Source: Cyanophora paradoxa CCMP329 (taxonomy: Eukaryota; Plantae; Glaucophyta). Taken from it: DNA of 40,523 nt. The position numbers were made by a program, and so were the translations under genes. The stretch is taken from positions 1 to 40,523 of the forward strand of contig QPMI01000146.1 of NCBI GenBank assembly GCA_004431415.1. Reading direction: 5' to 3'. The first letter of the stretch is position 1; each line of letters begins with the position of its first letter. Positions 1 to 29,569 of the stretch are shown here, piece after piece. The notes below the pieces were generated by a model. That model worked only from the letters and a program-made list of their open reading frames with translations, was not told the DNA's origin and made no database searches.

Positions 1-555
1 ATCACATATCGAATTTGCAGGTGCTGTGGGCGAATTACGACTGGTGGTGCTGCTGAAGGAGAAGGAGCCGAGCACCACGACGGTTACGAGCGGCTGCACC
101 AAATTCTGTCCGCGAAATTCACGGCGGCGGGGCAGCGCCTCGTAGACCAGAAGAGGGCAAGGCAGGGCCTCAACCGAGCATCGATACGATGGTGGAAATC
201 GCAGAGCTCGAGCGCATGCTGACGGAAGAGAAGATAGGCATGGGAAAGATCCGCCCACCGTCCTTGCGTCGCTGATCCCAGAGGAAAATTACGCGAGCAA
301 GCTGCAGGAGTACCTCTCAAAGACGCTGCCCGACAAGCAGAGGCGCGATTTACTGAAAGAGTGGTCGCACGCGCGAAACACGAACAACACCGACAACAAC
401 ACGGACGGGTACCTCTTCACGATTTTCCAGGCGGACGCCGGCCAGGCGGACGATCCCCGCTTCGCGCCGCAGGCCGCGGAAATCGGCGACCTGAGGGCCA
501 GGGGCCGAGGGCGCGGCAAAGGCAAGGGGCGCGGAAGGGAAGGGGTAGCGGATAA
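1..555 (+). CDS. Partial viral hypothetical protein (5' end outside the window, frameshifted)
   Basis: Frame from about 263 reads LASLIPEENYASKLQEYLSKTLPDKQRRDLLKEWSHARN..., which looks protein-like; probable stop TAA 553-555 after a frameshift. Confidence 0.45.
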
Positions 556-577
556 TAAATCTGACGGGCCCGCGAAA

Positions 578-841
578 ATGTTCCAGGGGGAATGCACCCA
601 CTCGGACATCATCACCGTCGTCTGCGGCGCGCTCTTCCTGGTCTCGGAGCTGCTGGGCGGCACGGAGCGCGTCGGCCCCAACACAGTGCTGGGCGCCCTG
701 AAGGCGGCGGCCCTTAGGGTCGTCCGCCGCGGACAGCCCGAGCCCGACCCCCACCGGAGCAGCAGAGGCGCGAGAGCACGCAGACATAGGCCGCACCACG
801 TCGACATTCAGATGACGCAAACCGGTACCCGTTTTTTCTAG
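578..841 (+). CDS. Small viral membrane protein
   Basis: AAAATG start; hydrophobic stretch IITVVCGALFLVSELLG; upstream TCT motif. Confidence 0.55.
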   Translation: MFQGECTHSDIITVVCGALFLVSELLGGTERVGPNTVLGALKAAALRVVRRGQPEPDPHRSSRGARARRHRPHHVDIQMTQTGTRFF

Positions 842-846
842 AGAAC

Positions 847-1216
847 ATGGGAAATGGAGACTCCCGCGACACCAGCCCCCAGCGCAGAGGCTCCAGCGCC
901 CAGCAACTCCAGCAGCAGCACGCGGCCTACCCTTGGCTTCTTAGGACTTACGCGCGAAAGAAGCAGCAGCAGCCGAAGGCACCGGCGAAATGGCGGCTGA
1001 CCTGGATCGGTGCACCCGCCGCGCATCGCGAGCTACGCCAAGCGCGTCGAGCAGTACCACCCCAGATGGCAGAGGACGCCCGGGCGTACGCGAAGAACCC
1101 CGCCGCGAGCCGCCCGTGATGGCCGCCGTCATCGACCGCTGCAGTGGGCGCTGCACGAGGAGGGAGAGCGCGTCAGGAATTTCTTCATGCCAAGTAAATT
1201 TCTGAATGGGCCTTAA
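847..1216 (+). CDS. Viral hypothetical protein (frameshifted)
   Basis: ORF 847-1119 joins overlapping frames ending at TAA 1214-1216 (...LQWALHEEGERVRNFFMPSKFLNGP). Confidence 0.4.
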
Positions 1217-1218
1217 CA

Positions 1219-1427
1219 ATGTCGTCCATGCTCCCGAGCCTCGATGATATCACAGCGATTCCCGCTACCTGGGCAGCCTGCTGACCCTCGGCGCGGTCGC
1301 CTACATGTCGCCCGCGCGCTACTACCTCGTGCGGATCCTCGCCGCGCAGTTCGCGGGCTACTACTTCGTGGGGCCCTACCTCCTCAAACGGCCTGAGGAA
1401 GGCATAATTTCTCAGGCCCCTTCCTAA
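1219..1427 (+). CDS. Small two-helix viral membrane protein (frameshifted)
   Basis: MSSMLPSLDDI../RYLGSLLTLGAVAYMSPARYYLVRILAAQFAGYYFVGPYLL; preceded by AATTTTCT-N15-ATG. Confidence 0.5.
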
Positions 1428-1430
1428 ATA

Positions 1431-1893
1431 ATGTCCTGCGTCAACCTCTACGTCCAGTCGAACGGAGAGACGCAGGATTCCGAGGGCTTCTGGCGCCTCA
1501 GGCTGAACCAGATCCCGCCGACATCGACACGCTGCAGATCAAGGGCGTCTACCTGGAGCTGGACACGACCGCGATTCCGGACCCCACCGCCGCGAAAACC
1601 GTCAACGTTCTGCTGATGGACGTGCCCGACTTGAACGTCACGACCATCTCGAACGTCAACACGTGCATCAACAAGGTCGTGATCCGACGTGGGGCACGAC
1701 GGCCTCGAGAACACCATCCTCTACTGGTTCGAGTGCCCATGGCCGTGCGCCCGAACTACGTCGCGTACGACAAGTTCCAGGAGCTGCGCGTGCGCTTCAC
1801 CGACATCACGGGCGCCACCAAGAAGAACAACGCCTTCATCGTCAAGAACTTCGGCTCTGGCCTTTGCGAAATAGATTTCGCAGGCCCCCTTAA
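1431..1893 (+). CDS. Putative minor capsid (penton-like, single jelly-roll) protein, frameshifted
   Basis: Reconstructed about 150 aa beta-rich protein: MSCVNLYVQS..WRLRLNQIP/ADIDTLQIKGVYLELD..VLLMDVPDL..KFQELRVRFTDITG..NNAFIV/ELRLW. The C-terminal 'xLxVxFxDxxG..N' pattern resembles PLV/virophage pentons. Judged by eye. Confidence 0.45.
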
Positions 1894-2367
1894 ATGCGCC
1901 TGATCATATTCCCGCGAAAGGGCTCGGGCGTCAAGACGCGCACCTTACGGCGTGCCTGGCTACCCCTCGCCCCTCACTTACAGAGTCGATCTTGTAACCG
2001 CCTCTGGTCCAATTAAATACGGGCTGCTGCACAGCCTCAGTCACATCCGTCTCGGCGAGAGCGCATGGCAGGACTTGGCCTTAATCGTAGAATTCGAGTA
2101 CAGGGGGGTAACACGCTAACGGGCGAGCACGTTTACAGGGTACGGGTAGCAAGGGAGGGGTACTCGCTGCCGAACGGCACGGGCGGGGAATACTGGGAGC
2201 CGAAAATACGCGACGCCTCCGAGGCCTACCGCTGGCTGCGTGACGAGCAGATCACTATCAGGCCCGATTACCCCTACGCCGACGTTTTCTGGCAGGTGCC
2301 CGTGGGCCGTTGGACAACGGGCGAGGTGAGCGGCAAGCTGAAGTGGACGTGGGACGCGGAGCATTAG
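1894..2367 (+). CDS. Viral hypothetical protein (frameshifted 5' half)
   Basis: TAAATG start abutting the previous stop; the C-terminal 100 aa are open (..YRVRVAREGYSLP..YRWLRDEQITIRPDYPYADVFWQVP..). Confidence 0.5.
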
Positions 2368-2392
2368 TTAATTTTTCTCTCTCGCGGATAAA

Positions 2393-5300
2393 ATGTCGAT
2401 GCTCGACGACCCCTGGCGCATGGCCATCCCGAATCCGGACGAGGTGCTGAACGGCGCCTTCGCGATAGACGGGAGCCTGAGCGTGAGGGGAATTTACGCG
2501 ACGAGATAAGGCTGCGCAAGGGCGGACCTACAGCGATTTCCTGACGTCCGTCGGTACCTTGGACGATTACGGTGACCTCACCGCAATTATCAAGGGGCTC
2601 TGGGCGTCACGACCGAGACGGGCGTGGACTGGAACATTATTAAGAGGGCGGCCGACGTGAAAATCGCAAACTCCGTTACAGCGAAAGACGCCACCCTGAA
2701 CCTCGTGAAACTGACTCTAAAGGGCGCAGAGGGGACGTGAGCCCGGGTACAACGCACTCGAGCGCATCGCGGCCCCCTGCGCCACATCTACTGGAGCCGC
2801 CAGGCGCTGCCGAGCATGGAGCCCGAGCAGTACAGGCGCGACAGGGAGGAGTTTTCGCGTGGTTCGACCACTTCAAGGTGAACATCCGCGCCCTGAGCGC
2901 CGACAGGACGGGCGAGACGCCGGAGACGACGGCGGGGGCCGCATCCCAACGGCACCCGACGTGCTCCCGATCGCTCAGACTGGGCGAAGACGCAGAACTG
3001 GGCGCTGAAGGACCACTTCCACGACGAGAGGTACGCCTCGTCAAGCACCCGCATGTGAAGGCCGACATCACGGACTGGGCGCACCGCCACCTGTACGACG
3101 ACATCATCGCGGGCCCAAGGTGCCGGGCGCGATTCCGGGTGGGGTACGGCGGCGGAAGCACGGGAGGTGGGGGTACAGGCACCGGGGGTGGGGGTACAGG
3201 CACCGGGGGTGGGGGTACAGGCACGGGGGGCGGAGGGGGCCCCAGTGGCACGCCCGTGGGAGGGGCGGGGGTAGCAGCGGCTCGGGTGGCGGCGGCTCGG
3301 GCGGAGAGAGCGGCGGAGGGGGTACGCTCGTGCCGATCCTTGGTACAACAACGGGAATCTTCGCGCGCCCTGATTGCAGGCGGTGCAAAGTACTACAGGG
3401 ATCGAAGGCGTACGAAAGGGACATTGCAGAGCTGCAGAAAGATAACAAAACGATCGTTTACTCAGACGAGCAGGTGAGAATACTGGCAGAGGAGCTGAAG
3501 ACAAGGGAGCGGCAATTTAACGAAATGAGACAGGGCCGAGAAAAAGATAGCGGACGATTTTGAAAGAGGCGAGCGATAGAATGAGAATCCCTGGAGGCGA
3601 GGAGAAAGCCGAGATCCGGAAGAGAGAGGCCGATAGGATCGTGGAAAACGCGATAAGGGAGGCAAAGGAGCAGGCAAGGACCGAGCTGGAGAAACTGGAC
3701 ATGGAAATAGCAAACAAGGTCAACATAGCAAACGAGTCGAAGAGGGCACAAAGATGCTGGACGATGAGCGAAAGGCAGCGGAGGAGCAAGCCAGAAAAGC
3801 AAAGGAGGATTTAAGGCAGCTCGAACTGCGAGAACAGGAGAGGCAGAAGGCAGAGGGGCTCGCATCCACCATACGATTCAACCTAGAGCAGCAAGTGAAA
3901 ACGCTGACGGCCGAGCTGCAGAGGATAGGACGGCTGTGCCAAGGGGCACAATGGAGACGCAGACGACGCCAAGGCCCGATCCAAGGCCGGCCGCCGAGAG
4001 GCTGCCCTTCGCGCGGCTGGGTAGGAGCGACCAGGTGGAAGAGCTCATTGGCCTCACGCTCGAGGATCAGAGGGCCCTCTTCGACGCGTTAGAGCAGCGG
4101 CGCAGGGCGGACGAGGAGGCAGCTGCCAAGACAGAAGAGGAACGACTGAAGGCAATGCAAACTGCATCAGACGAGGAATTTGCACGGCTGGAGGAGCCGA
4201 AGGTAGCGGAGCGTAAGCGACGACTGGAGACGTTCAGGGGGCGCAGATGGATTTTTACCGCTCGGAGCTCAAAAGACTGAAAGAAGGAAATGCATCGGGG
4301 ACAGGCTCCGCGCCATGGAAGAGAACATGCGCGACTTTAGCTACGTTATGGATCAGCTGACGGGAAGGGGTCAGAAAGACGCCGAAGAACTGAGGAGAAA
4401 GATGCCGATGAGAAGTGGAAAAACTTTGAGCGTCAGGCTGTTCAGAGGCCCATCAGCGATGCCATCTGGATAGCATACGGCGACGTGGAGGAGATGCACA
4501 GAGAACTGCGGACGGAAGCGAGCCTGTGGCGGGGAGCCCTCGAATGGTCACTGTACCGGATACAAAAGGGGGAGTTTTTGGCAGAGCTGCGAGCCAATCC
4601 GAAAACGGTGAGCGCGGGCGCACAGAGCGCGTACCTCTCCATGGTCGATTACGTGGGCAAGCTGAGCAAATTTTGGGAAATGCGAAGAGCCATCATTCCA
4701 GCGGAGGGGCTCGCGCAGTACGATGCCATGGTGCGCGATCTGGAGGCCTTCAAACGTGAGCACCCACCCGCCAATACAAGATTCACATAGATACGACGGC
4801 ATTCATGGGCGATCTAAGGAAGAGAGGAGACGAGGCCAAGAGTCAGATCGAGGAGCGCTACAGAAAGGCCCAAGCGGACAAGGAGTACGCAAACAGGGTG
4901 ATCGAAGAGCGGAAGCAGCAAGCCAAGGAGAACGCGGCGAGACGCAACGCCGAGATAGAAGAGCAGAGGCGGAAGATCGCAGAGCGCAAGGCGGCAGAGG
5001 AAGAGGCAAGAAAGACCAAGGTAGAGACAGAGTACCAAGCATTGAAACGGGAGGCCAATCAACTGTTAAAAAGGAGGGAAGGGCCTACGCCGACGAGGGC
5101 GCGGGCGTGGGCTCGGCCAGCCCGGACGACATCACCCTCGCGGAAAGGGACGACGTTTCCGTAGAGGAAATGCGCCCGGGCACGGCTCGCCTGCCCTCCG
5201 AGGGCGTATTTCAGACGCTCGACAGGCGCGTGATGGGCGACTCGGACGTTATTCTGCGCAACGCCCTCATGCCCTACGGCGACTGGAACCGCGCCACCGC

Positions 5301-7457
5301 CGACGCCCTTGCGATTTCGACCTCGAGCGATTCACCACCAAAGAGCAGCGCGACGCCTTCCTGGGGCGCCCGAGGGCCAGGCGGCCCGGGGTGGCCAAGG
5401 AGGCCTTCAGCGCAGAGACCCTCTTCTCCGCGATGGGTACGGCGAACAACGACGGCATGTCTTTCGGGGCAGCCGATTTATTTCAGGGGCGGGCATCGAC
5501 TTGGTGGGCGCCGGGCTGGGGGTACGGGCTCGCGGGCCATGCGGCGGGCGGGCGCGGCGGCGGCCGGCCTTGGGCTGGCGACGGCGGCGGCCTGCTCTCG
5601 CCTACCAGGCGCTCTCGCAGGGCAAGATAGGGGAGGCCGAGTTCTTCGATACGTTCCGCGATCAGATGATCATGACGGTCGGCTCCTTTGGCCTGCAGAC
5701 GGGCATGTCGTCCGCCCTGAGCGCCCTCACGAAAATGAGGATCGGCACGGTGGGCGGACTTGGCCTGTCCATCCTCGCGGCGCCATCGCGCAGGTGATCG
5801 TGGATATCATCAACGGGCGCAGCGCGGAAGAAATCGTGAAGAACTTTTTCAAGTACCCCGTTGACTGGGCGGCCGACACCATCCAGTTCATCGCGCAGCT
5901 ATCGCAGCAGATCTACGACTGGGGCGTCGAGACGTGGGGCGACGAGGCGAGCCAGCTGCGCAACCGAATTAATCGGCTGGAGGGCGAGCTGGGCTCCGGA
6001 TTTTTGGGTGTGTACGACCCCTCGGAGGCGCGCGAAATGGCCTCGCTCTTGGCCCAGGAGCTGCGGTTAAACGAAATCAAGGAGCCGAAGGAGCTGCAGG
6101 CCTTCATTCGCGCGCTCGACAACAGCATCAACGATTACCGTACCCCAAGGACCAGAAGACGCTGCTCGAAATCGATCGCGCAACCGTGCTCTTCCTCTCC
6201 CAGCTCACCGTTAAAATGCAGGAGGGATTCGGGTCGACCTCGCTCGCCTGAGTCGGCTGATGCGCGATTTAAAGCAGATGGTGAAGGAGGAGACCAAGGG
6301 CGGAAGCGCGTCTTAATTGCCGTCTACCAGGAGGGCCTCAACAGGATCAATCACATCGAAGCCCTAAGGCGCGAATTCGGCTCGCCATCCGTCACTCGGG
6401 CGTCTCGTCGAACGGAGGGCGCAGGTGGCCCGCCTGGCGGACGCCAACTCGCGCCTCGAGATTCCCGGGACCTTCCGCATGCAGGATTGGTGGGAGGCCG
6501 AGGCCTTCAGGAATTACGGGGCCTTCATAGACAACGGGATCAATTCGCAGAGCCCAAGGCAAACTGGCTGGTACCCAAGGCCTACGTCGATAAATTGGTT
6601 GACAGGCCTGCAGCACCATACACAAGAAGATCGCCAAAGGCATCGAGTACTGGGCGCCCGAGCCAGGCCAGCCCGTGTTTGCATCGCAGAACTACGAGTG
6701 GCACATGGCGCCGGGGGCGAGCCAGGCCGTGAGCACCGTGGGCGTTGCCGTGCCGCAGCTGGCGACGGTGGCACACACGGGGGCGTATGCAGATCTCAGC
6801 GGGAGCCGACGATACCCGTGATACCAACAACGTGGGCGTGGGATAGCATCACGGGGAAGCCGAGTACGTATCCCCACGCAGACCACCAGCACACCATCTC
6901 TCAGATCAGCGACTGGACGGCCCGGACTTGACGAACATCTCCGTGGATTGGGACAACGTAACGGGCAAGCCACTACCTTCCCCCCTCTACACACAGTCAC
7001 AATGTGTACTGGGATAATGTCATCGACCGACCCACTTCCTTCCCACCCTCTACGCACAGTCACACAGAGTACTCGCTCACCAGCCACGGGCACAGAAACG
7101 TGAACATGGATGCGTACATAACGCACGGCACGTCCTTCCACTCCTACGCTGCGTACACGGAGTTTAACATCAATTCAACATACACGGTGACGTTCAACAT
7201 TACATTCGGACAGGCGTACGACACTGGAGGCGGACTGGGGACCCCAGCAAACCAACGCCGGTTATTAACGTAACCCCTCGTTCGACATCAATCCCGGCGG
7301 CAGCACGGATGTCGATTTCTACGGGGCCAACGTCACGGCGGTGAGTCACACTGGCTTTACAGTTAAAGTGAGATTCCAACCCAGAATGACGGTCACGCCC
7401 ACCCAAATTGTCCAGCTTTTTATTCATTGGACCGCGATCGGCAAGCTGCTTATGTAA
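2393..7457 (+). CDS. Giant fibre-like virion protein (about 1,690 codons if one gene): HxH tail-fibre repeats, Gly-rich hinge, long coiled coil, Gly-rich hydrophobic segment, C-terminal H-type-lectin/gp53-like domain; many frameshifts
   Basis: Overlapping frames give continuous protein-like text from ATG 2393 to TAA 7455-7457. Motifs: HPHVKADITDW, LATVAHTGAYADLSG, WDSITGKPSTYP, WDNVTGKPTTFPPSTHSH, ITFGQAY..VTAVSHTGFTVKV..FIHWTAIG. Confidence 0.62.
3155..3310 (+). repeat. 21-bp tandem repeat encoding GGGGTGT within the giant ORF
   Basis: GGGGGTGGGGGTACAGGCACC about 3 copies, followed by Gly/Ser-rich sequence. Confidence 0.8.
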
Positions 7458-7481
7458 TCGATTTTCTGATGCAATCCAAAA

Positions 7482-8518
7482 ATGTCGGTCGCTGTCCCTC
7501 TATTTACCTATGCTGCCAGCGTGAATCACAAGGGCGATCACACGATTAAGGAGACCACCCTCGGAAACCAGGCCACCGAGGCCCCCTACAACGCCACGGC
7601 CGTCCCCTTTTCCGAGGCCGACCTCGTCCGCGTCGGCGAGCTGCGCTGCGACAAGATGCGCACGCGGGAGGGCGGGTCGGCCGTGCCGGGGCGCGTGAGG
7701 ACGCAGAGGCTCACCGTCACGAACGGGGCCTGGACGGGAGCGGGTACACCACGAATCAGGTGACCTTTAATGGGACTGTGAACGGGGAGGGGAATGCGGC
7801 TCTGTATGTGCAAGGAGGCGGAGCAAACGTGGTGGGGGGCTTAGGTGAGCGGGGCTTCAAACTTGGCGGGCATCGTTACATTGGACGATAAGCTGCAAAT
7901 TACCGGAACGTCACCGTACATAAATGGCGGTGGTTCAGGCGTAGCTATAAAGTACAACGAAAACGATAGACTCCTCTGTGGGACTCTTGGCGTTGGTGTT
8001 ACAGGTACTCTATTTACCTCGGCAATCGAAGGCCCTACTAATGGCCTAAGCATAGCAAACACTTCAATCGTTGATAGCGGAAGCGTCAGCTCTGGTCTAT
8101 CCTTGAGAAACAACGGCACCGAACGACTGCTGTGCGGAACCGTCGGCGTTGGCATCACGGGTCGGCTCATCGTCTCGACGCTCACGGGCGATGGAAACCG
8201 AGCCGTTTATTCGGATGCTCAAGGATACCTGACAAACTCGTCGAGCGATAGCCGCCTGAAAGAAAATGTCGCGAGCATGTCGGGCATTCTCCCTCTTCTG
8301 CTGCAGCTGAATCCGTGTCGTTCACCTGGAAGAACACATCCTCGGGGGTTCGAAAACGGATTACGGTCTCATCGCACAGGAAGTCCAAGGCGTCTTCCCG
8401 AGTCTCGTTTCGAGAACGCGGATGGATTTCTCGGGTAAACTACGACAGGCTCATTTCCCTGTCGTTGAAGGCAATTCAGGAACTTTCACAAGAAGTTCAA
8501 ACTCTCAAAGACCAGTAG
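7482..8518 (+). CDS. Fibre protein with C-terminal intramolecular chaperone (peptidase S74) domain; frameshifted
   Basis: SSDSRLKENV..LLQLNP/VSFTWK../LIAQEVQGVFP/..VNYDRLISLSLKAIQELSQEVQTLK is the classic S74 signature. Internal repeat RLLCGT(L/V)GVG(V/I)TG occurs twice. Confidence 0.85.
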
Positions 8519-8555
8519 CGGCACTGGCGAGCTGATCTGGAACAACTAGGAATAA

Positions 8556-10692
8556 CTACACCGCGAGTATCACAATTCGACCGTTGCCACCGTCGCTGAA
8601 AGACGAGCCACCGTTGCCGCCCCTACCAATGCCTGCTGCGTAGTGAGCGTCTCCGCTATTTCCTGCCACCTGGCCGGACCCAGGATACACCGTAGCATCC
8701 GTCAAGTTTCCTATGTAGCTCGAGCCACCGCCACCTCCAAACATTCTTGCTATTGGGTTCTCTGACACTCCGCTCCTGCTGGACCAGAGCCTCCACCGAA
8801 GTAACCACCACCACCACCACCACCGAACCTGTAGCCGCTTGAATCAGGCCCAGTCTCTCCACCTTGGCGCAAAGTTCCCGGGTTGCTGGGCCTGGCCCCT
8901 GAGGCCACAACACCGGCTCCGCCAGCGGTTTGGGTGCCTCCTTGAGCCGGTATCTCTCCGGTTACTCCAACCAACCCAGCCGCACCACCGGTCAACCCCC
9001 GCCTACTCCCCCGCCGCCATTCGAATCACATGTACCCCCACCTCCGGCCCCTGCAACAACCAAGTCGGTCCCTGCAACGCGCTGAATTGCAGAACGACCA
9101 CCACCGGCGCCGTTTTTGTACTCCGGATCGACGCTATGGCTCCAGCCCCTTCCACCACCTCCGTAGACGGTAGCAGTGGCAGTCCCCGATACACCCTTTG
9201 GGCCGCCGCATCCAACAACAAGGATGAGCGTCTCCCCCGAGGACACAGCCAATGTACCAACTACGCAAGCACCCGCGCCTCCACGGACCCCCGTACCTGC
9301 GCGTTCTCCGCCTCCACCCCCGGCCGCCCATACGATGACACGCACAGCCACAGTCCCCGTTGGTACTACGAAAGTCTGGTCGGCCCCGGTGTAGGAGAAT
9401 GTACCCAAAACAGGAGCGTTTGCAGTTGTTGCACTGGCAGACGAGGACTGAGGGCCTTCCTCGCCGATCTGGTTGACGCCCTTGATGGTGTAAGTGTAAG
9501 TGGTTCCGTAAACGGTCGTTGTGTCCGAAAAGGGGCTGCTCGTGTCGCTGGCAAGGAACACGCCACCCCTGTAGATGTTGTAGGAGACGGTGACGCCCGT
9601 CACCGGCACCGACCACTCGAGCACAACAGGCTGTGCTGCCCCCGCCGCGGGGTTGCAGTGAGCCCAGTGGCGCCCCCGGGTCCGTGGTGACGTACGCCGC
9701 AATACTCTTCGGCCCTCCCCTCCCGTGTTCGTCGCGGAGATCTGGTACTCGTACCCTGTACCCCAGACGGTGGTCGTGTCGCTGTAGGAGTTGGTCGCGG
9801 AGTCTGTGAGGTAGGCCCCGTCTCTGTAAATCTTGTATCCCGTCGCTCCCGTGGACGCAGTCCAGCTGAGGCTGACAGGCTGCTGCTGGTCGTTGGGTGC
9901 TGATGCCGTCACGTTCGTGGGGGCGTTTGGCATAGTCCAGACCAGGAGCGGATCGGACTTGTCGTATTCGACACCGCCCACGATGCCGGCCACCTGGTAA
10001 GAGTATTCCGTGCCCCACGTAAGAGCAGTGCTATCGTCAATGTACGAGGTAGACAGGGCACTGCTCGCAAATCCGATTGGCGTACCGTTCCTGTAAATTC
10101 GAATCGAGTCCGCGCCCTCCATGGCCACCCAGTTGATTGTGACGACTATGGCGGGTTTCGGGAAGCCCGAAGACGCGGGGCCGCCCCCGGCAATAAAATC
10201 GCCGTAGGTCTGGGCCGTGGCGGTCGTGAGCGTGGTGTAGGCTTCGATCTGCGGGCTGAAGCCGCCTATGCCTTGGAAGAGAATGTAATTGCTCATGGCA
10301 CCCTCGTGGGTGTAGAGAAGCGACTGTGCGTAGGTTGTGGGCGGGGCTTTGCCATCAGAGCCCGTGCTGCTGCTGCCCTGTTCGCGAACCGCCGCCACGC
10401 GGTAGAGTCGCTGGGCCCCCAAACTAAAGGGAGAGTCCGTGTAGGTGACGGTTGGCGCATTCACCGTGGCCACGAGATCCCAGGGGCCGTTGATGCTGGT
10501 CGCCCTGTACACCTTGTACTTGACGGCGTTGGTGACCGCGACCCAGTTCAGCTGAAAGCCGTACGTACTGTTCCCGTTGTTGAGCACGGAGCCCGATCGC
10601 ACCTGGGGCCTGCCCACAGTCAGCGAGATCGGCTCCACGCCATACTGCGGAGCCTGCACCACCTGCTTTTTCACGAATACGAAGCGGGGCAT
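8556..10692 (-). CDS. Protein with four fibronectin type III repeats and a C-terminal glycine-rich domain (ALK/LTK-like Gly-rich type); frameshifted
   Basis: Four LxW...YxIYR...YxD...GxxYxYxV/I units. FSYTGADQTFVVP..VRVIVWAAGGGG, GGGGGYFGGG, GGGGSSY and terminal GGNGRIVI. Confidence 0.85.
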
Positions 10693-10731
10693 TTTCCTCT
10701 ACGATCCGAAAAAATATCTGCCCCGGGGTAA

Positions 10732-11411
10732 ATGACTTCCAACTGGTACCAGACCCTCAGCGGCTCACTTGACGTTGGCAACAACACCAAGGATTTCGCA
10801 CGCATACCCTCCGGCAGTTACGTCGACGTCTTTCTGCAGAATCCCGTCGTGATTCAGGTCGTTCAGAACGCCTACGCCACGCCCAAGATTTATTCCTACC
10901 AGCTCTTCTTCGACCCTCTGAGCCTCAGCGCAGAGGTTATCGAGCTGCTGCACGAATCAGGACTCGTGAAAAAGGTGGCACCTGCCACGGCCACTGCCAA
11001 CGTCTTGCGCTGTCTCGAGGTCAAGTTCAGGGAGACGGGGTACGGCCCCACCGTGAACCGGTACCCCAGTTCTTCGAATCTTCCGGGTACGGGAACTTAC
11101 CAGATGAGGGGTACGCTCAAGGGCGACGTGCTCTTCACGAAATTCAATCCAAGTCCCGCGACCCTGGGGCCCTCTACACGGGCGGCAACCCACGCGGCTC
11201 GACTCTACCCCGCTTCCCCTTCACCTTTTTCAGGTTCCAGGTCTTCCCCCTCTCCTACGCCGCCGACCAGCCCCACTTCAGCACGGGCGCCAGCCTCTGC
11301 GCGGAGCTGCGTGAGTGCTCGATTTCCTACGCGTACGGCACCGACGCTGACTCTGTGCCTGGGGCCCGCGTCATGAACATCGGTGGCGACATCACCCTCT
11401 TTCACGGATAA
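10732..11411 (+). CDS. Viral beta-rich hypothetical protein, paralog A (frameshifted 3' third)
   Basis: ORF from TAAATG; shifted frame ends AELRECSISYAYGTDADSVPGARVMNIGGDITLFHG* at 11409-11411; similar to the next gene. Confidence 0.65.
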
Positions 11412-11434
11412 TCTTTCTCATTTGAGGTCGCAAA

Positions 11435-12245
11435 ATGCCGACCACCTCGGCCACCATCGTGAAGACCGTGTCTGCCGGCTCGATCGTCCCCGATTTCTAC
11501 GGCAACGCTGGGAACGTGGCCAACGCAGGGACGGACAAGGTGGAGTGGGACGGAAACTACGCCACCCCGCTCACCGTGAGGGTCCAGAATCCCGTCATGT
11601 TGCGCGTCACCTCCAACGATTTCGAGAATCCCGCCTCCTGCTCCGTGTACGTGTACTTTGACATCGACTCGGGCGTGAGCGCGGATGAGGCGGAGGCGCT
11701 CTGGCTCTCGGGCCTCCTGAAAAAGATAGAGCCCTCTGTGCCTGATCGGCCCGCCATTCGCGTGCTCGAACTCAGTTCACCGCTAACACCGCCCTCACTC
11801 GCAAATTCGGGAATGGTGCGAATCCGAACATCAAAACGCATTTAGATGGCGCCCTCATCGATGCCACACACAAGACCACGCAGGCCGTTCCCTTTGAGAT
11901 GTACAACCTCTGGAAGATGACCGCAAAGGAGATGATGACGAATGCCACCACGGGCGGCGCCTCGGGTACCGATTATTCATACGGCGCCTCGAATCCCCGT
12001 ACCCAGGTCTGGCCCCGCTCCTCTTCACGAAATTCACTTTCAAATTGTACAACAACATCGCCGGAATGCCTACCTCTGGAATGGTCGTGGGCTCTACCCT
12101 CATGGCCGAACTAATTGAGGCAGAGGCGGACTACACGACTGCGACTACCAACTCGACAGCGCCAGGCGCCGGAGCCGAAGTTTACGTGGCCTGGGAAACG
12201 GTCGGTCGCGAGTACGACACCAAGATTCACACCACTAGCGTCTAG
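11435..12245 (+). CDS. Viral beta-rich hypothetical protein, paralog B (frameshifted)
   Basis: ORFs 11435-11845, 11899-12114 and 12045-12245 join into about 270 aa. Shares QNPV, SGL(L/V)KK, LFTKF and AELxE..PGA with paralog A. Confidence 0.65.
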
Positions 12246-12599
12246 ACTGGCTAAGCTGCATTAGCACCTGTGTCGCCTCCATCATCTCCCGAATCTCCTC
12301 GCTCTTCTCCTGTAAATTGGCGTACCCCCTCCTCTTCTTGCGAATCTCCGACATTGATGCCCAGCGCAGGTTCTCCCTCCTGTAGTCCAGCGGGTTGCCG
12401 TTGATGTGTTCCACGTAGCGTCCACGTGGCGACTTCCCGAGGATCAGCTGGAGAGGTAGTGCTTGCGCCCTCCAAACGTCTTGCTCACCCTGTCCCTGTC
12501 CACTCTCCAGGGAAACTCCAAGGCACTCGGGGGTACGTCCGAGTTGACCAGGACGTTGTAGGCGACGTCTTGCGAGTCGGTGCACCGGAGCAGGGCCAT
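12235..12599 (-). CDS. HNH endonuclease (HNH_3-like), one frameshift
   Basis: MALLRCTDSQD..RKHYL/QLILGKSPRGRYVEHINGNPLDYRRENLRWAS matches the DHINGxxxDNRxxNLR pattern; AAAATG start at 12599. Confidence 0.8.
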
Positions 12600-12620
12600 T
12601 TTGCCCTAGGTTCAGAAAAA

Positions 12621-12709
12621 CCTGGGACTTGGACTTGGGACTTGGGACTTGGGACTTGGGACTTGGGACTTGGGACTTGGGACTTGGGACTTGGGACTTG
12701 GGAAGAGTT
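12621..12709 (+). repeat. CCTGGG(ACTTGGG)11AAGAGTT module, copy 1 (G-quadruplex-forming)
   Basis: 10 perfect and 1 imperfect heptamer, counted directly. Confidence 0.95.
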
Positions 12710-12810
12710 GAAACCCAGGTCCCGGCCCAGACTTTCTCCAGGATCAGAAATTTGTCAGACAAGTCAGGTGAGTTTTCTACCGACTTTTTTACTCCTACCA
12801 CTCCTCATAC

Positions 12811-12857
12811 TCTTTTTTACTCGTAGTCTTTTTTACTCGTAGTCTTTTTTACTCGTA
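12811..12857 (+). repeat. 16-bp tandem repeat TCTTTTTTACTCGTAG, about 3 copies
   Basis: Read directly; a further degenerate copy lies at about 12784. Confidence 0.9.
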
Positions 12858-13136
12858 TCCCATCTCGTACCCTCCTTCTCTCGACATCTCACACGAAAAC
12901 TCCTACCCCTCTTCACATCCGTTTTCGGTTGCATACTCTCGTGAGCTTTCATGTCCAGTATCATGCTACAAGTCGTACACCAGTTCAGACTCTACCTCGC
13001 TTGAAATCTCACCTGGAATGTCACCAGAAACGTCATATGCAGATTTCCGTACCCCTCTACATGTCTGCCCGGTGGTTAGGGACTTGGCGCGGCAAACTCT
13101 CAGATCCAGAGAGATTCTGGCCCAGACCCTGAGTCT

Positions 13137-13198
13137 AACTCTTCCCAAGTCCCAAGTCCCAAGTCCCAAGTCCCAAGTCCCAAGTCCCAAGTCCCAGG
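13137..13198 (-). repeat. CCTGGG(ACTTGGG)7AAGAGTT module, copy 2 (inverted relative to copy 1)
   Basis: AACTCTT(CCCAAGT)7CCCAGG on the + strand. Confidence 0.95.
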
Positions 13199-13268
13199 AT
13201 CGCGCCAAGTCGTAACTGAATAGTCGGCCAATTTTACAAGTATGTACAATGGAATGACGCAATACTAT

Positions 13269-14338
13269 TTACAGCATCTCAAAGTCAGAGTCATCGTCAT
13301 CGGAAACCAACTCAATGAGGCCCTCGGGCGCCGACTTAAGGGGAATGCGGGGAAGGGACTGCGCTGCCTGCACCAAGTCCTGCCGCTCGCGCTCGCGCTG
13401 CGCCGCCAAGGCCGCTGCCGCCTCTGCCTCGCGCTGCTGCTGAGCCTCGATGCGCGCCTTGAGCTCGGCCGCCTCCTTCTGCTTGCGCTCGGCGATCCGC
13501 GCCTTGTTGATCTGGTACTGGACAAGGCGCTCGTGGCGCCGCTTGCGCTCCAACTCCTTGCGGAGCTCGTTGCAGAGGACGCGCTTCTCAATGGTCTTGA
13601 CGTGCTGAGTCAGGCGCTCGCTGTAGTGTGACGTCACGCGAGAACGGGCAATGCCGGCGCCGAGCTTCAAGTCCTTCTCGTGTGCCTTGGCGGGGTCCTT
13701 GACGCGCTCGGAGTTGTCGGTGAATGACGTAGTCTCCATGAACTTCTTCTTGACGATTGACTTGGTCTTGATAATGCGGCGCTTGCGAGTCGGGTTTTCG
13801 TTGTCGCCTTCAGAGTCAGAAGACGACTCAGAGTCGTATGGAATCGGCACGTCAAAGTCGATGAAGTCGTTGATGTCAGACTCGACGTCAGAGGCCTCGG
13901 ACTTGGCGTCATCGGCGGGCTCGGGGGCGGGCTCGGCGACGGGCTGAGGGGCAGATGACGACGATGACGGAGGGGGGTAATTCGTGAAGACTTGAGGGGG
14001 GTAGGCCCAGGCGAGCGTCTCGGCAGCAGACTCGGCGAAAAGCTTGGGGTCGCCCCAGCCGTTGGCGGTCTTGACCCAGCCGGGACGGGGGGCACGTCGA
14101 CGGGGGGCTCGGGCTTGGGTTGCTTGGACTTGGATTTCTTGGCCTTGGACGTGAAGGCGGACTTGGGGAGAAGTTGCACTTCGGGGCCAGTGGCGCGTAA
14201 GATGGCATAATTGTAGATGTACCCCAGAGCGTCGGCGCGCTGCTCCATCTCAGGGGTAGCCCCTTGAGTGCCACCGGAGTTAGCCCACGTTGCTTGGACA
14301 AAGGCGAAGTCCTCGGCAAGCTCAGCGGGAATCGACAT
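13269..14338 (-). CDS. Viral hypothetical protein: Pro-rich/acidic linker, basic NLS-like stretch, coiled coil, C-terminal SIM-like acidic tail; frameshifted
   Basis: MSIPAELAEDFAFVQATW.. joins ORF 13269-13850 (RKRRIIK, ELRKELERKRR.., LIELVSDDDDSDFEML*). Confidence 0.7.
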
Positions 14339-14678
14339 CTGCGCAAAGGGAAAAGAAATCAGCAAAGGCAAAACGTGAGGTGACTGTGAGGGCGGACTTG
14401 TGAAAATTCGGAGAGGCGGGGTTTCCTTGGGCTGAGAGAAGGCGGCGAACCCGTTTCAAGAGTGAGCCAAAATGGCGGCGGACCGCGGTTTTGTGGGCGA
14501 TTTTTTTCGCGGTCTAGTTCGCAACGGAAAACGTTGCCAACTGGCCTGAAAAAAGCCAAATTTAGCGTTGGACCGAAGGCAGAAAAAGGGAGCCGGCCTG
14601 ACGGAAATCGCCCGAGTGCGTCCGCCGAAGGTCGAGTCTCGGGCCGGGGGTACACCCTCAGGGGCCCCCCCTGGCCCC

Positions 14679-15148
14679 TCACCCTGGTAGTGCCCTCTCA
14701 AAGGGATTTTCGAAGCCGTACAATTCTTGGTAAGTCTCGTAATCCGGGCTGTACCCCCTCACAATCTGCGGGAGCCCCATTGAAAGCCTCCGTCTATCCT
14801 CTCTCAATTCCCTGCGGAAAAGTCTACGGTCTTCTCGAGCTTCGCGTGTCACGCCAGCTGGGCGTGGTCTATGATTGTTAGGGTTGTCGTAGCCTGGTCC
14901 CACCAGCCTCACGAAATTTTCGCGTATGGCCTCGGGGAGGCTCTGGAAACGGCTCGTCGCGTGGAACTCAATCCATTCATTGAATCGACGCGGATATTGA
15001 CGGATGACTTCAAGCACGCCCTGTGTGTTGGGCTCTGGTGTTACGTCGGGATGTCATGTCCCGTGAGGTGCCAACGCCAGAACTCGCGCAACCTCTCGAA
15101 TGCCATATTCAACTCAAAGGGAAAATCGTAATAGAGATTGCCTGACAT
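14679..15148 (-). CDS. Viral hypothetical protein (one frameshift)
   Basis: MSGNLYYDFPFELNMAFERLREFWRWHLTGHDIP/DVTPEPNTQGVLEVIRQYPRRFNEWIEF..; AAAAATG start with the upstream motif. Confidence 0.65.
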
Positions 15149-15199
15149 TTTTCTCCCCGTCCGAAAATTTCCCCGCTTTTGGGTCCAGACTCTGATTCC

Positions 15200-15261
15200 A
15201 ACTCTTCCCAAGTCCCAAGTCCCAAGTCCCAAGTCCCAAGTCCCAAGTCCCAAGTCCCAGG
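15200..15261 (-). repeat. CCTGGG(ACTTGGG)7AAGAGTT module, copy 3 (direct repeat of copy 2)
   Basis: AACTCTT(CCCAAGT)7CCCAGG on the + strand. Confidence 0.95.
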
Positions 15262-15869
15262 TCACATTTTTCTCCCATTTTGACTCGAGATTCTGACCAA
15301 GTCCAAATCCGGGCCCGGGATTCGAACCCTCGTTTTCGATCGATTTCACGCGTGAAAACGGCACTTTTCGGCCTTTTCCGATTTTTCCTTTCTCGCGATC
15401 GCATTAATGTCCCCGATCTCGAAATCGCGATCGAAAAGGGTCGCGATCGGGAGAAAATCGCGATCGCCAGGGTCGTGATCGGGTCGCGATCGCCGCGATC
15501 GCCAGCCTCGGAGGGGGTACCCCCACAGCTGTTGCGGCGGTTATAAGAACCTCCGCAATCCAAGCGTCACTTCCGAGTCTCGAGCTCTCGGAGTTGACTT
15601 TTCGCGTTTGGCCCATTGATGGCCCTCATATATATACCGTATACGTAGTATAGTGCGCATACGCGGTTCCGCGGCGGGGATCCGCGGCCGGTACCGATGG
15701 CCGGGCTAGCCATCGAGTTTTCTGATCATGAGGATACAAGCTTAAGGGTCTAGTCTAGAGCTTAAGCTTATGTATGTATCGGGCGGTGGAGGCCAGGGCC
15801 GGGGCATGCGGGCCTCCCCAGCTGCAGCCTCCCCATGGCCACGAGGGGGGAGGGGCCCCGAGCCCGCCC

Positions 15870-17585
15870 CGCCGGCGCGCCCTCTGCCTTCGCACCCTCC
15901 TCTAGCCCGGCCCACGTGCACACCCGACTCCCCTTCTGCCCCCCCCCCCCCTCCCTACTGATTTCTACCTCCTCCTTCCCCCCCCCCCCCCCACCCCAAC
16001 CCCCACCCCCCCTCCCCTAGGCCTCCGGCGCGGCTGTACGGCTTTCCGATACACGGGGTACACGCACGCACGACTTGGCCCAGTGGGGGCCGGTGGTGGG
16101 GTGCAGGGGGCAGGTCACGACCAGCTGAAGGCCTTAAGCTCAATATAAAGCTAATTATATAAGAGGCGGGGAGGATCTTGGGGCTGCCCGGGGCGCCGCC
16201 GGCCTCCCGAGGCCCCACTGGACGCGCTGCACGGAGACGGAGCGCGCGGCCGGGCGGTGCAGCGCAGGCTTGAGCGAGGGCGGGGCCGGCACGGCCGGCG
16301 CCCTCCTCCGGCCGCCGCCCCTCCCTCCGCGCGCCCCGCCGCCCTCCTGCTCGAGGACTGCCTCCTCCCCGCCGACGAGGCCGCCTGGCCCCCCGCCGCC
16401 TTCGCCGGCGTCAGCCGGTGCGCCGTCTCGAGCGCCGGTTCGCGCTGTACCCCCCAACCGAGCGTCCCGCAGGGTCTCGATCCGGGTGCGGGGCCGGGGC
16501 CCCCGGGCCGCGGCGGGGGGCCTGCCCCTCGCCGCCATGCGCTGGCTCCACCGTCCGCCCCTAGCCTCCCTCTCTCCGCCCCCAAAACCCCCCTCGGCCG
16601 AGCCCCCGCTAACGTAAACCCAGGCGGGGCGCACGCGGGGACGCTGGGGGAGGTCGAGGTCGAATTGAGCGGCCCCGACCTCGAGTGGCCCGCCCGCCCC
16701 GCCCCGCCCCCGCCCTCCCCGGTGCCCCGGGCCCGCCCCGCGCACCCACCCACCCAAGCCCTCTCAAGCCCGCCCGCCCCGCGCGCCCCGCCCCGCCCCG
16801 CCCGCCCCGCCCCGCGCTAGACCTGGAGCGCCTGCCGGGGAGCTCGCGCGCCTCCCGGAGGGCGCCCGCGTCGTCCTGCGCCTCCCCGCCCGCTTCCGCG
16901 GCTCCAGGTGCGCACCCCCCTCCCCCCACGAGTCTTCTGAGCGCGGGGCCGGCCGCGGGGCGCCAGGTTCGTGGACGGGCGGCTCCCGGCGCTGGTGGAG
17001 GCCGCGCGGGCCTTCCCGCGCCTCCTCCGCGCCCTCGAGATCCACGAGGGGGAGGAGGGGGAGGGGGAGGGGGAGGGGGAGGGGGGGGCGGCCCGGGGCA
17101 CCCTCGACCGCGCCCTGTTCCGATACCGCGCCGCCCGCGTGCGCCCGTACCCCTTGCCCCTTCATCCAGTATGTGGGATCGCTGAGGGGCGCGCGGGGTG
17201 CAGGAGTGCCTGGCGGCGCTGGACGCGGCCGGCGCGGCGGCGGCTTGCGAGCTAGCGCTGCGCCCCCTCTTCCTCCGCACCCTCCTCTAGCCCGCACCTG
17301 TACCGCCCTCCCCCTTTCTCTGATTTGTACCTACGTATACTCCCCTCCGGATCCCCCTCCTCCGGATCCCCCTTGGCCTCCGGCGCGGCTGTACGTATAC
17401 GGCTTTCCGACGTCGACTGCACAAGCTTAAGGGCCGCCCGTGGTACACACACGCACACGGGACTTAGCCATGGGCCGGGCCGGGCCGGGCCGGGGGCGGG
17501 ACTTAAAATTCGACCGGCGGGTCATGATCACGATGGCCAAGGGGGCGCGGCCGGCCGCGGGGCCCGGGGCGGGGATGACCTTGCC
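15870..17585. repeat. Diverged, partly tandem duplication of the 3' end and downstream flank of the C2-domain gene (homologous to about 34020-34490)
   Basis: 16175-16295 matches 34368-34487 (CCCCACTGGACGCGCTGCACGGAGACGGAGCGCGC). 17100-17480 matches 34025-34325. 15890-16080 matches 17275-17470. Confidence 0.8.
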
Positions 17586-24750: not shown

Positions 24751-25131
24751 ACCGTCTGCGGCTCCGAGTCCCGCGCTGGCCGCGGCCCTGCCCGCTTAGC
24801 TTACTGATCGGCGCTATAGCTAGCGCTCTCTTTCTCTCTCGCAAACATATATACTAGTAGTCATGTCCCCGCCCTCCCGGAGTCCGGATCCGGAAATCAT
24901 GTGAGTCCCCACTACTAGAGTCACTAGTACTATATATAGCTACCAGCTGCAGTAGTCGACGTCACAGTACTAGTGACGGTCACACTGATCGGCTGCGAGG
25001 CTAATCATCAGCCAGTGATATATATGCGCGATACTGTAATGAATTTCAACAACCCAGCGTACCCGATACGTATAATACCCAAGGAGGCCAGCTCGGTACG
25101 CATCTGCTAATAAAGCCGAGAATTACTAGTA

Positions 25132-26300
25132 TTTTTTTTGATGAATTACCGGCCACAGTCTCTAGACACCAGCACTGCGGGGGCTGCCCAGGGGGCATAA
25201 AGACAAAAAAGCAAAATAACTAAGACAATAGCACGAAGAAAGATAAGACAAAGAGCCAAAATCGACAATAAAAAAGGAAAGACACAGAGCTCGAGACAGA
25301 TCGATAGCGAGAAGAGACGATAAATCGAGCAGATCTAGGGACAGAGAATAACTGACACGAAGAAGAGCCAGAGCTAGAGATACCATCAATATCAGAAGGA
25401 ATTACATCACTAAGAAGCGGGACAAAATTGAGAAAGATAAATAACAGGAAGAAGACAAGTAAGAGGAACAACAAGACGACATGGAGGCGGAGGCGAAGCA
25501 GGACGATGCGAAAGGGCAGAGCTACGGCACGAGGTAGAGGAGGACACAGGAGGCGGAGCAGGCGGAGCAGGCGGATCAAGAGCAGGCAAAAGGACAGTCA
25601 AAGGAATCACTAAAGCCGGCCGGGGTCGAGGCGGGCAATCGAACTGCAAACGACGGCGAACAACAGGTCGAGCACGAGGACTATATATAGCTAGTATTGA
25701 AACTAACTCTAGCATCAACACTACGATCAGAATCCGAACCAGACCGAACTAAACTAGAAGACGAAGAAGTACGCCGGCGCCGGCGGGATACGATCGCGAC
25801 CAGCGAAGCAGAAGACGAAGGCAAAGGCGGCAGTCCGGTATCAAGAACAAAGGCCGGAGGGTCCGGCCCGGCAAACCGCCGGGGGGAAGTAGAAGGAGCC
25901 GCAGGCTCGGCAAGCCGGCGACGGGTACGACCACGAGTCCGGGAGGAGATCGGGGAAGCCGGTCCCGGAGCTGAGGGCCCAGGAGCAGAGCCAGGAGAAG
26001 GTAAGCCCGGCGAGAAATCTGACCCGGAGCCGGAACCCAGCGAACGACGACGACGAAGAGGCCCCCGAGGAGCCACGACGGGGGAGCTACCGAGCAAAGT
26101 ACTGACAGCCGGCGTCGAACACGGCGGCGGAGGTACCCCGCAGACAGTGGCAGGCGGAGAATCCAGGGCCGATCGAGAGATCCGCCGACGGGAATGCGGC
26201 GGGGGCCGACGAGACGGAAGAGGCGAGGAGGGAGCCGAGGAAGGGTCGGAGGCAGGGGAAGGGCGGCTAGTAGCCTTGGAAGGCTGATCATGATTCATGA
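25132..26300 (-). mobile_element. Possible 3' fragment of a non-LTR retrotransposon or retroposed sequence
   Basis: Strongly A-poor, pyrimidine-rich minus strand with an S/P/R-rich ORF and a T-rich UTR-like tail ending in GTAATTCATC-A8. No RT motif or clear TSD. Confidence 0.35.
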
Positions 26301-27317: not shown

Positions 27318-27596
27318 CCGTGTGGCACTAATTATAAATTACCGCGGCATAAATCACCGCGTTAGAAACTCCGGCCCGCGAGGGTGGCCAAAATACCGCG
27401 GTACCAAATTACCGCGTTTTCAAGTTTAAAAAACTTGAGGCTTGTATGGGGCGGTTATTCGGGGGGGTACTGTATGGGGCAACTTCTCAGCAGCAAATTA
27501 CCGCGGTACCAAATTACCGCGTTTTACCAAATTCTCGACGCGGTAATTTGGTACCGCGGTAATTAAGTGGGCGCGGTATTATAGTGCGCCGCACGG
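27318..27596. mobile_element. MITE (279 bp) with TA target duplication, Tc1/mariner-pogo type ends
   Basis: TA|CCGTGTGGCACTA ... TAGTGCGCCGCACGG|TA imperfect TIRs; many internal AATTACCGCG motifs in both orientations. Confidence 0.75.
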
Positions 27597-29524: not shown

Positions 29525-29569
29525 TATATATATATGCGAGCGAAGCGACCAGGCCGTGACCATGAGGCT

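What the first reader, a model, noticed from the sequence alone, without database searches (positions are those of the whole stretch)
1..15530. Endogenous eukaryotic DNA virus with a phage-like fibre/adhesion gene module, integrated in an algal (probably glaucophyte) genome
Seen: about 15 tightly packed ORFs abutting intron-rich host DNA. More than half the visible element (2393-10692) encodes three fibre or adhesin proteins: HxH tail-fibre repeats, an S74 chaperone, and FN3 plus Gly-rich domains. Established: Polinton-like viruses and virophages are 15-40 kb integrating viruses with pentons, and S74/HxH domains typify trimeric virion fibres. Inference: this is a PLV/virophage-like provirus with unusually elaborate attachment machinery, possibly from an undescribed lineage. 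The hallmark MCP, ATPase, polymerase and integrase would have to lie left of the window.
Basis: partly seen in the sequence, partly recalled or inferred. Interest (0 to 1): 0.88.

Follow-up and report, generated by a model that had tools for sequence, protein, structure and literature searches.

The report
Cyanophora endogenous Polinton-like virus, right arm
This is one end of a DNA virus-like element repeated on dozens of contigs of the alga Cyanophora paradoxa, carrying a predicted capsid-vertex protein and phage-like attachment genes; it is likely one of the integrated Polinton-like viruses already counted in this alga, so the main claim is real but mostly known.

Summary
Real, but largely known and overstated. 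Bases 1 to about 15,500 are the right arm of a multi-copy element of Cyanophora paradoxa; three of its genes have relatives on 55 named contigs in conserved order. The many frameshifts are likely long-read deletion errors: sister proteins tile the window almost exactly, and short-read contigs carry the missing letters. Only about 25% of the DNA is fibre-like, not over half. The 5-kb gene 2393-7456 is mostly charged coiled-coil-like sequence with a short fibre and H-lectin tip. Published surveys already count 366 capsid genes and 156 elements in this alga, call S74 fibres ubiquitous in PLVs, and note a PTR-PTR-H-lectin fibre in a C. paradoxa PLV. Not found in my searches: a shared AT-rich TCT motif before most genes, two tandem OB-fold-like paralogues, and three fibre-tip types among copies. 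MCP, ATPase, integrase, the left TIR and reads across the right junction were not testable.

The parts
1..15530 (.). Right arm of a multi-copy endogenous element; continues left of the window; right end between about 15,475 and 15,630
   Evidence: Change point 15475, first TATATA 15629; X9 record 25 runs 1,398 letters left of base 1; family on 55 named contigs
1..555 (+). 3' part of an unassigned gene, open at the left, end uncertain
   Evidence: Frames; no Pfam or PHROG family
578..810 (+). Small gene with a hydrophobic stretch, unassigned
   Evidence: N-terminus of P0012 and P0091; upstream motif at -18
854..1119 (+). Probable small gene, unassigned
   Evidence: Flagged by the upstream motif; frames
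1219..1427 (+). Small membrane-like gene, unassigned
   Evidence: N-terminus of P0024; motif at -18
1431..1880 (+). 149-aa single jelly-roll protein, predicted penton (minor capsid protein)
   Evidence: P0014 tiles 140 of 149 aa with 3 frame switches; model pLDDT 69.5; best solved matches EhV-201 chain Z 9.3 and PBCV-1 chain Z 8.0, mavirus penton Z 5.8
1894..2367 (+). Probable gene, unassigned
   Evidence: 2122-2274 matches P0088 at 96%; no family
2393..7456 (+). One gene of about 1,680 aa: N-terminal domain, Gly linker, long E/K/R/Q-rich coiled-coil-like part, hydrophobic stretch, then HxH tail-like repeats and an H-lectin-like tip (about 6700-7456)
   Evidence: P0100 tiles 1,649 of 1,678 aa with 42 frame switches; composition; phrog_14 E 1.5e-9; H_lectin E 0.005
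7482..8535 (+). Short beta-rich fibre-like gene with a C-terminal Peptidase_S74 chaperone
   Evidence: S74 fragment E 4e-4, 21.0 bits against cut-off 22; tail-fibre PHROGs E about 1e-3
8559..10692 (-). FN3 repeats plus Gly-rich (ALK/LTK-type) domain, putative adhesin
   Evidence: fn3 E 1e-6, RGI_lyase E 8e-9, ALK_LTK_GRD E 4e-5; phrog_1696 E 3e-21
10732..11411 (+). 226-aa protein, weakly predicted OB fold (T7 gp2.5-like ssDNA-binding)
   Evidence: P0035 tiles 226 of 226 aa with 1 frame switch; best Z 4.9 to Cdc13 and T7 gp2.5; phage SSB rows at TM 0.3-0.36
11435..12245 (+). 270-aa paralogue of the preceding gene
   Evidence: 29% identity over 202 aa, E 5e-18; P0050 tiles 269 of 270 aa
12241..12599 (-). 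HNH endonuclease
   Evidence: HNH_3 E 3.4e-7, 30.2 bits against cut-off 24.8; start flagged by the motif
12617..15266 (.). Three arrays of one 7-nt G-rich unit with conserved flanks: the first inverted to the other two (about 13119-13198 and 15182-15261)
   Evidence: Families D6, D7 and pairs I1, I2
13272..14338 (-). Acidic, Pro-rich, coiled-coil-like gene, unassigned; its start follows a pyrimidine tract and AG, like a splice acceptor
   Evidence: Frames; upstream sequence; no family
14679..15148 (-). Last gene before the right end, unassigned
   Evidence: Start flagged by the motif; frame

Best explanation
This is the right arm of a multi-copy element in the Cyanophora paradoxa assembly that is likely an integrated, probably intact Polinton-like virus of the family already counted in this alga. 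Shown: the family is on many contigs in conserved gene order, ends at a sharp compositional border, and carries fibre-, S74-, FN3- and HNH-like genes. Predicted: the 149-aa protein is the penton, and the two tandem paralogues are OB-fold ssDNA-binding proteins. Inferred from known PLVs: MCP, A32 ATPase, rve integrase and a pPolB or helicase lie to the left; the element builds a double jelly-roll virion whose S74-matured fibre and lectin-tipped long protein bind host surface glycans; it enters the nucleus and integrates. The shared AT-rich TCT motif would be one promoter class, possibly read by a helper giant virus as with mavirus.
For: Multi-copy and syntenic: 55 named contigs; 16 of 17 contigs with both the penton-like gene and a 226/270-aa gene have them within 8 gene numbers. 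Intact-looking: sister proteins tile 98-100% of three genes and 94% of a fourth; all 12 shown of 103 indel places are single letters put in, at full depth for 8 of 12 in X1 and 10 of 12 in X9. Penton: top two of 48,161 chains are EhV-201 and PBCV-1 capsid chains (Z 9.3, rmsd 3.1, 124 aligned; Z 8.0, rmsd 3.8, 128 aligned), with SGIV, Sputnik and mavirus penton lower; top BFVD hits E 5e-5 and 6e-4, the second an adintovirus protein. Literature: 366 MCP genes in C. paradoxa; 156 elements with A32 in 139, rve in 85, S74 in 37, HNH_3 in 40; PTR-PTR-H_lectin in a C. paradoxa PLV. One of six listed MCP contigs, tig00020936, also carries penton-like P0015.
Against: No MCP, ATPase, polymerase or integrase is in the window, and the left part could not be read. 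The MCP link is one shared contig of six, with unknown distance. The right junction was not tested with reads. The penton model is middling (pLDDT 69.5), and unrelated pro-activin scores Z 7.3, within 1 of the PBCV-1 chain. The OB-fold match has no Z of 5 or more. S74, H_lectin and ALK_LTK_GRD scores are under their Pfam cut-offs, and Pfam PTR was not hit. Contigs pool many copies, so they show the family's majority, not this locus. Only 2 of 156 glaucophyte elements hit PLV MCP models.
Confidence: 0.78

Rival explanations
1. A separate lineage of small integrating double jelly-roll viruses, closer in its capsid module to Nucleocytoviricota or mriyaviruses than to described PLV groups.
For: The best structural matches of the penton-like protein are giant-virus capsid chains. 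HHpred best hits of six C. paradoxa MCPs are ascovirus, iridovirus and PoV MCPs. Only 2 of 156 elements hit PLV MCP models and 15 hit an NCLDV-type mCP model. T7-like SSBs occur in mriyaviruses and NCLDV families.
Against: 107 of 156 hit the PLV-type ATPase model, 85 carry rve and 49 pPolB. An adintovirus protein is the second BFVD hit. HHpred hits reflect which MCPs are in its database. No VLTF2/3 or other mriyavirus marker was seen in the window.
Confidence: 0.1
2. A decayed provirus: the frameshifts are real and this copy is a fossil.
For: 42 frame switches in one gene; 103 indel places in 12.6 kb; minor deletion forms exist as joints (table 5).
Against: Substitutions are rare while single-letter losses are many: 226 of 226 and 269 of 270 residues match sister proteins exactly. 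The 12 indels shown are put-ins carried by most or all contig depth in two DNA runs. Bellas 2023 shows that such EVE breaks are often assembly artefacts.
Confidence: 0.06
3. An endogenous virophage (Maveriviricetes).
For: The upstream motif resembles the AT-flanked TCTA promoter of mavirus and type 4 EMALEs; Sputnik and mavirus pentons match at Z 5.8.
Against: 0 of 156 glaucophyte elements have a virophage MCP, ATPase or protease. The penton-like protein is only 149 aa, against 297 and 362 residues for the virophage chains.
Confidence: 0.03
4. A bacterial prophage or a chimeric join between a contaminant and host DNA.
For: Phage tail PHROG hits; the junction was not read-tested.
Against: No match in 50,697 phage records by blastn or tblastn. 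All but 2 of 38 homologue clusters are C. paradoxa gene models. The family sits on 55 contigs. 14 DNA runs of one organism hold about 0.8 of the words of 6000-15900. A penton-like fold is not a tailed-phage feature (established knowledge).
Confidence: 0.03

Closest known systems
Endogenous PLV-type elements of Cyanophora paradoxa (Bellas 2023, PMC10120064, Tables S1, S2, S4; Bulzu 2025, PMC12220804, text, Table S6, Fig. S6)
   Same: Same host species; multi-copy; S74 and HNH_3 genes; tail-like repeats ending in an H-lectin domain; one MCP-bearing contig also carries this family's penton-like gene.
   Different: I could not match this locus to a listed element or to one of the two MCP clusters (272 and 94 copies). 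The passages I saw do not mention the promoter-like motif, the OB-fold pair, the coiled-coil body of the long protein or the tip types.
PLVs with phage-like fibres: Gezel-14T, cryptophyte, Paulinella and Tetraselmis PLVs (PMC12220804 passages; bioRxiv 2025.10.09.676808 passages)
   Same: S74-ended fibres, long modular attachment proteins, structural genes clustered on one arm.
   Different: No laminin G, collagen, BppL or discoidin domain here; FN3 plus Gly-rich domain instead ('fibronectin' has 0 hits in the Bulzu main text). No sequence relatives in IMG/VR scans.
Mavirus and EMALEs (Maveriviricetes; PMC8547959 passages)
   Same: Integrated small DNA virus; AT-flanked TCT-type motif upstream of genes.
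   Different: The motif is not TCTA in most starts; the penton-like protein is half the size; no virophage MCP or protease in the glaucophyte survey.
Mriyaviruses (PMC11253617 passages)
   Same: Single jelly-roll minor capsid protein; T7 gp2.5-like OB-fold SSB in gamadviruses.
   Different: No VLTF, HUH or RuvC gene seen in the window; the glaucophyte elements mostly carry rve and many carry pPolB.

Membership tests
Polinton-like viruses | Double jelly-roll major capsid protein | not testable with these tools
   None in the window; left part unavailable. Indirect: MCP and P0015 share tig00020936.
Polinton-like viruses | Single jelly-roll penton | tested here: met
   Predicted fold of sister protein P0014 matches viral capsid chains best (Z 9.3 and 8.0; mavirus penton Z 5.8). 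That the top chains are pentons is recalled; only confirms that the PBCV-1 penton is a single jelly roll.
Polinton-like viruses | A32/FtsK-type packaging ATPase | not testable with these tools
   Not in the window; 139 of 156 surveyed elements have one.
Polinton-like viruses | Integrase (rve or tyrosine recombinase) and replication enzyme | not testable with these tools
   Not in the window; rve 85, YR 0, pPolB 49 of 156 in the survey.
Polinton-like viruses | Terminal inverted repeats and target-site duplication | not testable with these tools
   Only one end is present; the inverted repeats found are internal 7-nt arrays.
Polinton-like viruses | Integration in a eukaryotic chromosome, multi-copy | tested here: inconclusive
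   Multi-copy met (55 contigs); compositional border and intron-bearing host gene on the same contig; no reads laid across the junction.
Polinton-like viruses | Length 14-40 kb | tested here: inconclusive
   At least 15.5 kb plus 1.4 kb further left; total unknown.
Virophages (Maveriviricetes) | Virophage-type MCP, ATPase and cysteine protease | not testable with these tools
   Not in the window; 0 of 156 glaucophyte elements in the published table.
Tailed-phage prophage | Similarity and synteny to phage head, portal, terminase or tail modules | tested here: not met
   No blastn or tblastn match in the phage collection for the regions queried; only short accessory tail-domain PHROG hits among 21 proteins.
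T7 gp2.5-like SSB | OB fold with T7-type additions | tested here: inconclusive
   Best Z 4.9, rmsd 4.2, 117 aligned to 1je5; tied with Cdc13; model pLDDT 63.8.

The most novel reading that the evidence does not exclude
An intact, glaucophyte-specific lineage of integrating double jelly-roll viruses, hundreds of copies strong, with a giant-virus-like capsid module that standard PLV models miss, one promoter class tuned to an unknown glaucophyte giant virus, a pair of OB-fold proteins beside telomere-like 7-nt arrays, and a 1,680-aa coiled-coil virion protein whose lectin tip is swapped among copies like phage tail-fibre tips.
Probability: 0.25. Interest if true: 0.62.

Novelty: already known. 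Interest (0 to 1): 0.32.

Why it matters
Glaucophytes are the third lineage with primary plastids, and a published estimate puts these elements at about 7% of the C. paradoxa genome. If they are intact, many 'host' gene models in this reference proteome are viral and are broken by false introns. The shared upstream motif gives a testable handle on who transcribes them, host or helper virus. The tip types give a small model of receptor-binding diversification inside one genome. The headline claim, a PLV with phage-like fibres in an alga, is ordinary.

Tried and rejected
No whole genome was held, so the contig could not be extended. No related loci were found in IMG/VR, JGI metagenomes or prokaryote genomes; these scans need short exact patterns and show no absence. 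The profile search of 1.84 billion proteins gave 9 hits: 6 family members and 3 long repetitive proteins that I dropped as spurious. No PDB sequence match for the 226/270-aa family. The ESM Atlas gave no answer for P0001, P0014 or P0050. I first guessed that the 226- and 270-aa genes were extra pentons; the fold search gave OB folds instead. Pfam found nothing at E 0.05 in 17 full-length sister proteins; PTR was never hit. Expression: no RNA holder listed. Two runs guessed to be RNA have contigs over 832-1855 and parts of 6575-12600, and none over about 2100-4200; DNA carry-over from a high-copy element is not excluded and contig depth cannot rank genes, so I do not count this as evidence. Summed depth (about 2,000-9,000 in X1) is not a copy number. 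GC as a boundary marker was rejected because host 24.8-34 kb is also low in GC. Earlier findings of this scan: none.
Full report
What is there. Bases 1-12,250 have GC 0.60 and 12,250-15,530 have 0.57, against 0.74 for 16-24.8 kb; but host 24.8-34 kb is 0.52, so GC alone does not mark the element. Word usage does: TATA occurs 2 times in 1-15,600 and 89 times after, and a 4-mer model trained on 1-12 kb against 17-40.5 kb peaks at 15,475. The flank is algal nuclear DNA: a gene at 38,933-39,598 has a Chl a/b-binding hit just under the cut-off and two apparent introns. I count about 14 genes in the element.

Host and copy number. Searches with three window frames returned 11, 17 and 10 clusters; 36 of these 38 are EukProt gene models, and their accessions name Cyanophora paradoxa. 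The names listed cover 55 contigs; 16 of the 17 contigs with both the 149-aa gene and a 226/270-aa gene have them within 8 gene numbers. This is a lower bound, as only the first name of each row was counted. Fourteen DNA runs of one organism hold 0.77-0.81 of the sampled words of 6,000-15,900. In two of them, contigs cover all 30 bins of 1-12,600, show 129 substitution places, mostly at partial depth among the 40 shown, and one contig runs 1,398 letters left of base 1.

The frameshifts. The window's frames break constantly. Of 103 indel places, the 12 shown are all single letters put in, at full depth for 8 of 12 in X1 and 10 of 12 in X9. Sister proteins tile the window in exact blocks: P0100 1,649 of 1,678 aa with 42 frame switches, P0035 226 of 226 with 1, P0050 269 of 270 with 2, P0014 140 of 149 with 3. 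More distant copies tile less (P0084 46%, P0104 60%, P0079 73%). Many deletions with almost no substitutions point to long-read error, as Bellas 2023 describes for other EVEs. Contigs pool copies, so this speaks for the family more than for this locus.

The attachment module. 2,393-7,456 is one gene. Its first ~1,430 aa have no Pfam family, reach 40-50% E/K/R/Q over long stretches and hold two hydrophobic segments. Only the last ~250 aa are fibre-like: phage tail PHROGs (phrog_14, E 1.5e-9) and H_lectin below cut-off. 7,482-8,535 ends in S74 (fragment, 21.0 bits against 22). 8,559-10,692(-) has FN3 repeats and a Gly-rich domain. Fibre-like DNA totals 3,945 of 15,530 bases, 25%. Among 9 copies with a tip, the 140 aa before the fibre part are 85-100% identical (P0105 has only 56 of them), while the last 90 aa fall into three groups: four at 98-100%, four at 89-100% to each other and 48-54% to the first group, and one at 19-29% to both. 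I left out copies whose models end early. These are gene models, so the single third type needs confirming.

Hallmarks found. The 149-aa gene at 1,431 was folded from sister protein P0014 (5 sequences, pLDDT 69.5, all beta). Against 48,161 solved chains the best are an EhV-201 capsid chain (Z 9.3, rmsd 3.1, 124 aligned) and a PBCV-1 chain (Z 8.0, rmsd 3.8, 128 aligned); SGIV scores 7.0, Sputnik and the mavirus penton 5.8, and unrelated pro-activin 7.3. Foldseek ranks the same PBCV-1 chain first at E 2.7e-3 and an adintovirus protein second in BFVD. That the top chains are pentons is recalled; one search confirms only the fold of the PBCV-1 penton. The 226- and 270-aa genes are paralogues (29% over 202 aa). 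The 226-aa model (pLDDT 63.8) matches mostly OB-fold proteins, best Z 4.9 to Cdc13 and T7 gp2.5, none at 5 or more, and phage SSBs weakly. An HNH_3 gene lies at 12,241-12,599(-). Three arrays of a 7-nt unit follow.

A shared upstream motif. Four A/T letters followed by TC(T/G) lie at -24 to -16 in 7 of 8 starts and at -15 in the eighth; background is 369 of 24,414 positions, 1.5%. I saw the motif by eye on these starts, so this is not an independent test. It then flagged 854, the HNH start and 15,148, and also four ATGs that I do not take as gene starts (1,206, 5,269, 5,458, 10,121) and one in-frame second ATG. Mavirus and type 4 EMALEs use an AT-flanked TCTA that matches the CroV late promoter. 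A helper-read promoter is a hypothesis only.

What is in print. Bellas 2023 (PMC10120064; parts 1-3 of 7 of the text, supplement rows) does not name Cyanophora in the main text, but its tables list 366 MCP genes in two clusters (272 and 94), an estimated 7.3% of the genome, and six MCPs whose HHpred hits are ascovirus, iridovirus and PoV capsids. One lies on tig00020936, which also carries P0015, 99% identical to P0014. Bulzu 2025 (PMC12220804; passages, supplement rows and part 33 of file 1) calls S74 ubiquitous across PLVs, reports two PTR repeats fused to H_lectin in one C. paradoxa PLV, and tabulates 156 glaucophyte elements: PLV MCP model 2, mCP 97, A32 139, pPolB 49, rve 85, YR 0, protease 0, S74 37, HNH_3 40 (columns counted by me). 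Starrett 2021 (PMC8502044, one passage) notes adintovirus-like proteins in C. paradoxa contigs. Also seen as passages: PMC8547959, PMC7019647, PMC11253617 and bioRxiv 2025.10.09.676808. Four searches for Cyanophora with PLV terms returned only the Bulzu and Starrett works; 'promoter', 'single-stranded', 'tape measure' and 'coiled' have 0 hits in the Bulzu main text. The library lacks most subscription papers, and the authors' per-element files were not seen.

Verdict. The element is real and is best read as the structural and attachment arm of a C. paradoxa endogenous PLV (0.78). The fibre module is typical of PLVs, not exceptional, and this family is probably among those already counted. MCP, ATPase, integrase, TIR, TSD and junction reads remain untested. 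What is left of interest is the uncharacterised state of a large, apparently intact, divergent family: penton, OB-fold pair, promoter-like motif and tip types. Interest 0.32.

Noticed in passing
window 1-15600 against the rest: The element nearly lacks TATA (observed/expected 0.04) and CTAG (0.13), while the host flank is rich in TATA (4.3). This is a sharp marker for finding other copies and may reflect avoidance of host promoter or restriction-like signals.
   Followed up: partly
window 12617-15266: Three arrays of a 7-nt G-rich unit with conserved flanks, one inverted, next to two OB-fold-like genes. The array also follows the 270-aa gene in another copy (end of model P0055). A telomere-like binding site is possible but untested.
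   Followed up: partly
window 13272-14400 (-): The gene near the right end lacks the shared motif at its apparent start, which follows a pyrimidine tract and AG; it may be a spliced, host-transcribed early gene.
   Followed up: no
window 3308-11884: Contigs show joints that skip 147-1,979 bases, most at low depth, one (3308-3954) at high depth: length variants among copies.
   Followed up: no
EukProt models P0011, P0012, P0013, P0049, P0081: Host gene prediction joins neighbouring viral genes and bridges frameshifts with false introns, so viral genes are filed as Cyanophora proteins.
   Followed up: partly
P0089 (Logan), P0026 (JGI), P0018 (Logan), P0106 (ENA): Relatives of the penton-like protein at 57-84% identity to P0014 exist outside this assembly, P0089 on a contig of 8,181 bases; they suggest related viruses in other samples.
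   Followed up: partly
window 38933-39598 (+): Host HLIP/OHP-like gene with a probable plastid transit peptide and two apparent introns.
   Followed up: partly
window 24800-34000: A 9-kb low-GC host stretch (0.52): palindrome-rich repeats at 25-30 kb and an intron-rich gene at about 30.2-33.4 kb, not identified.
   Followed up: no
window 16190-16300 and 34383-34493: An 88% identical 111-nt direct repeat in host DNA, apparently ends of two paralogous minus-strand genes.
   Followed up: no
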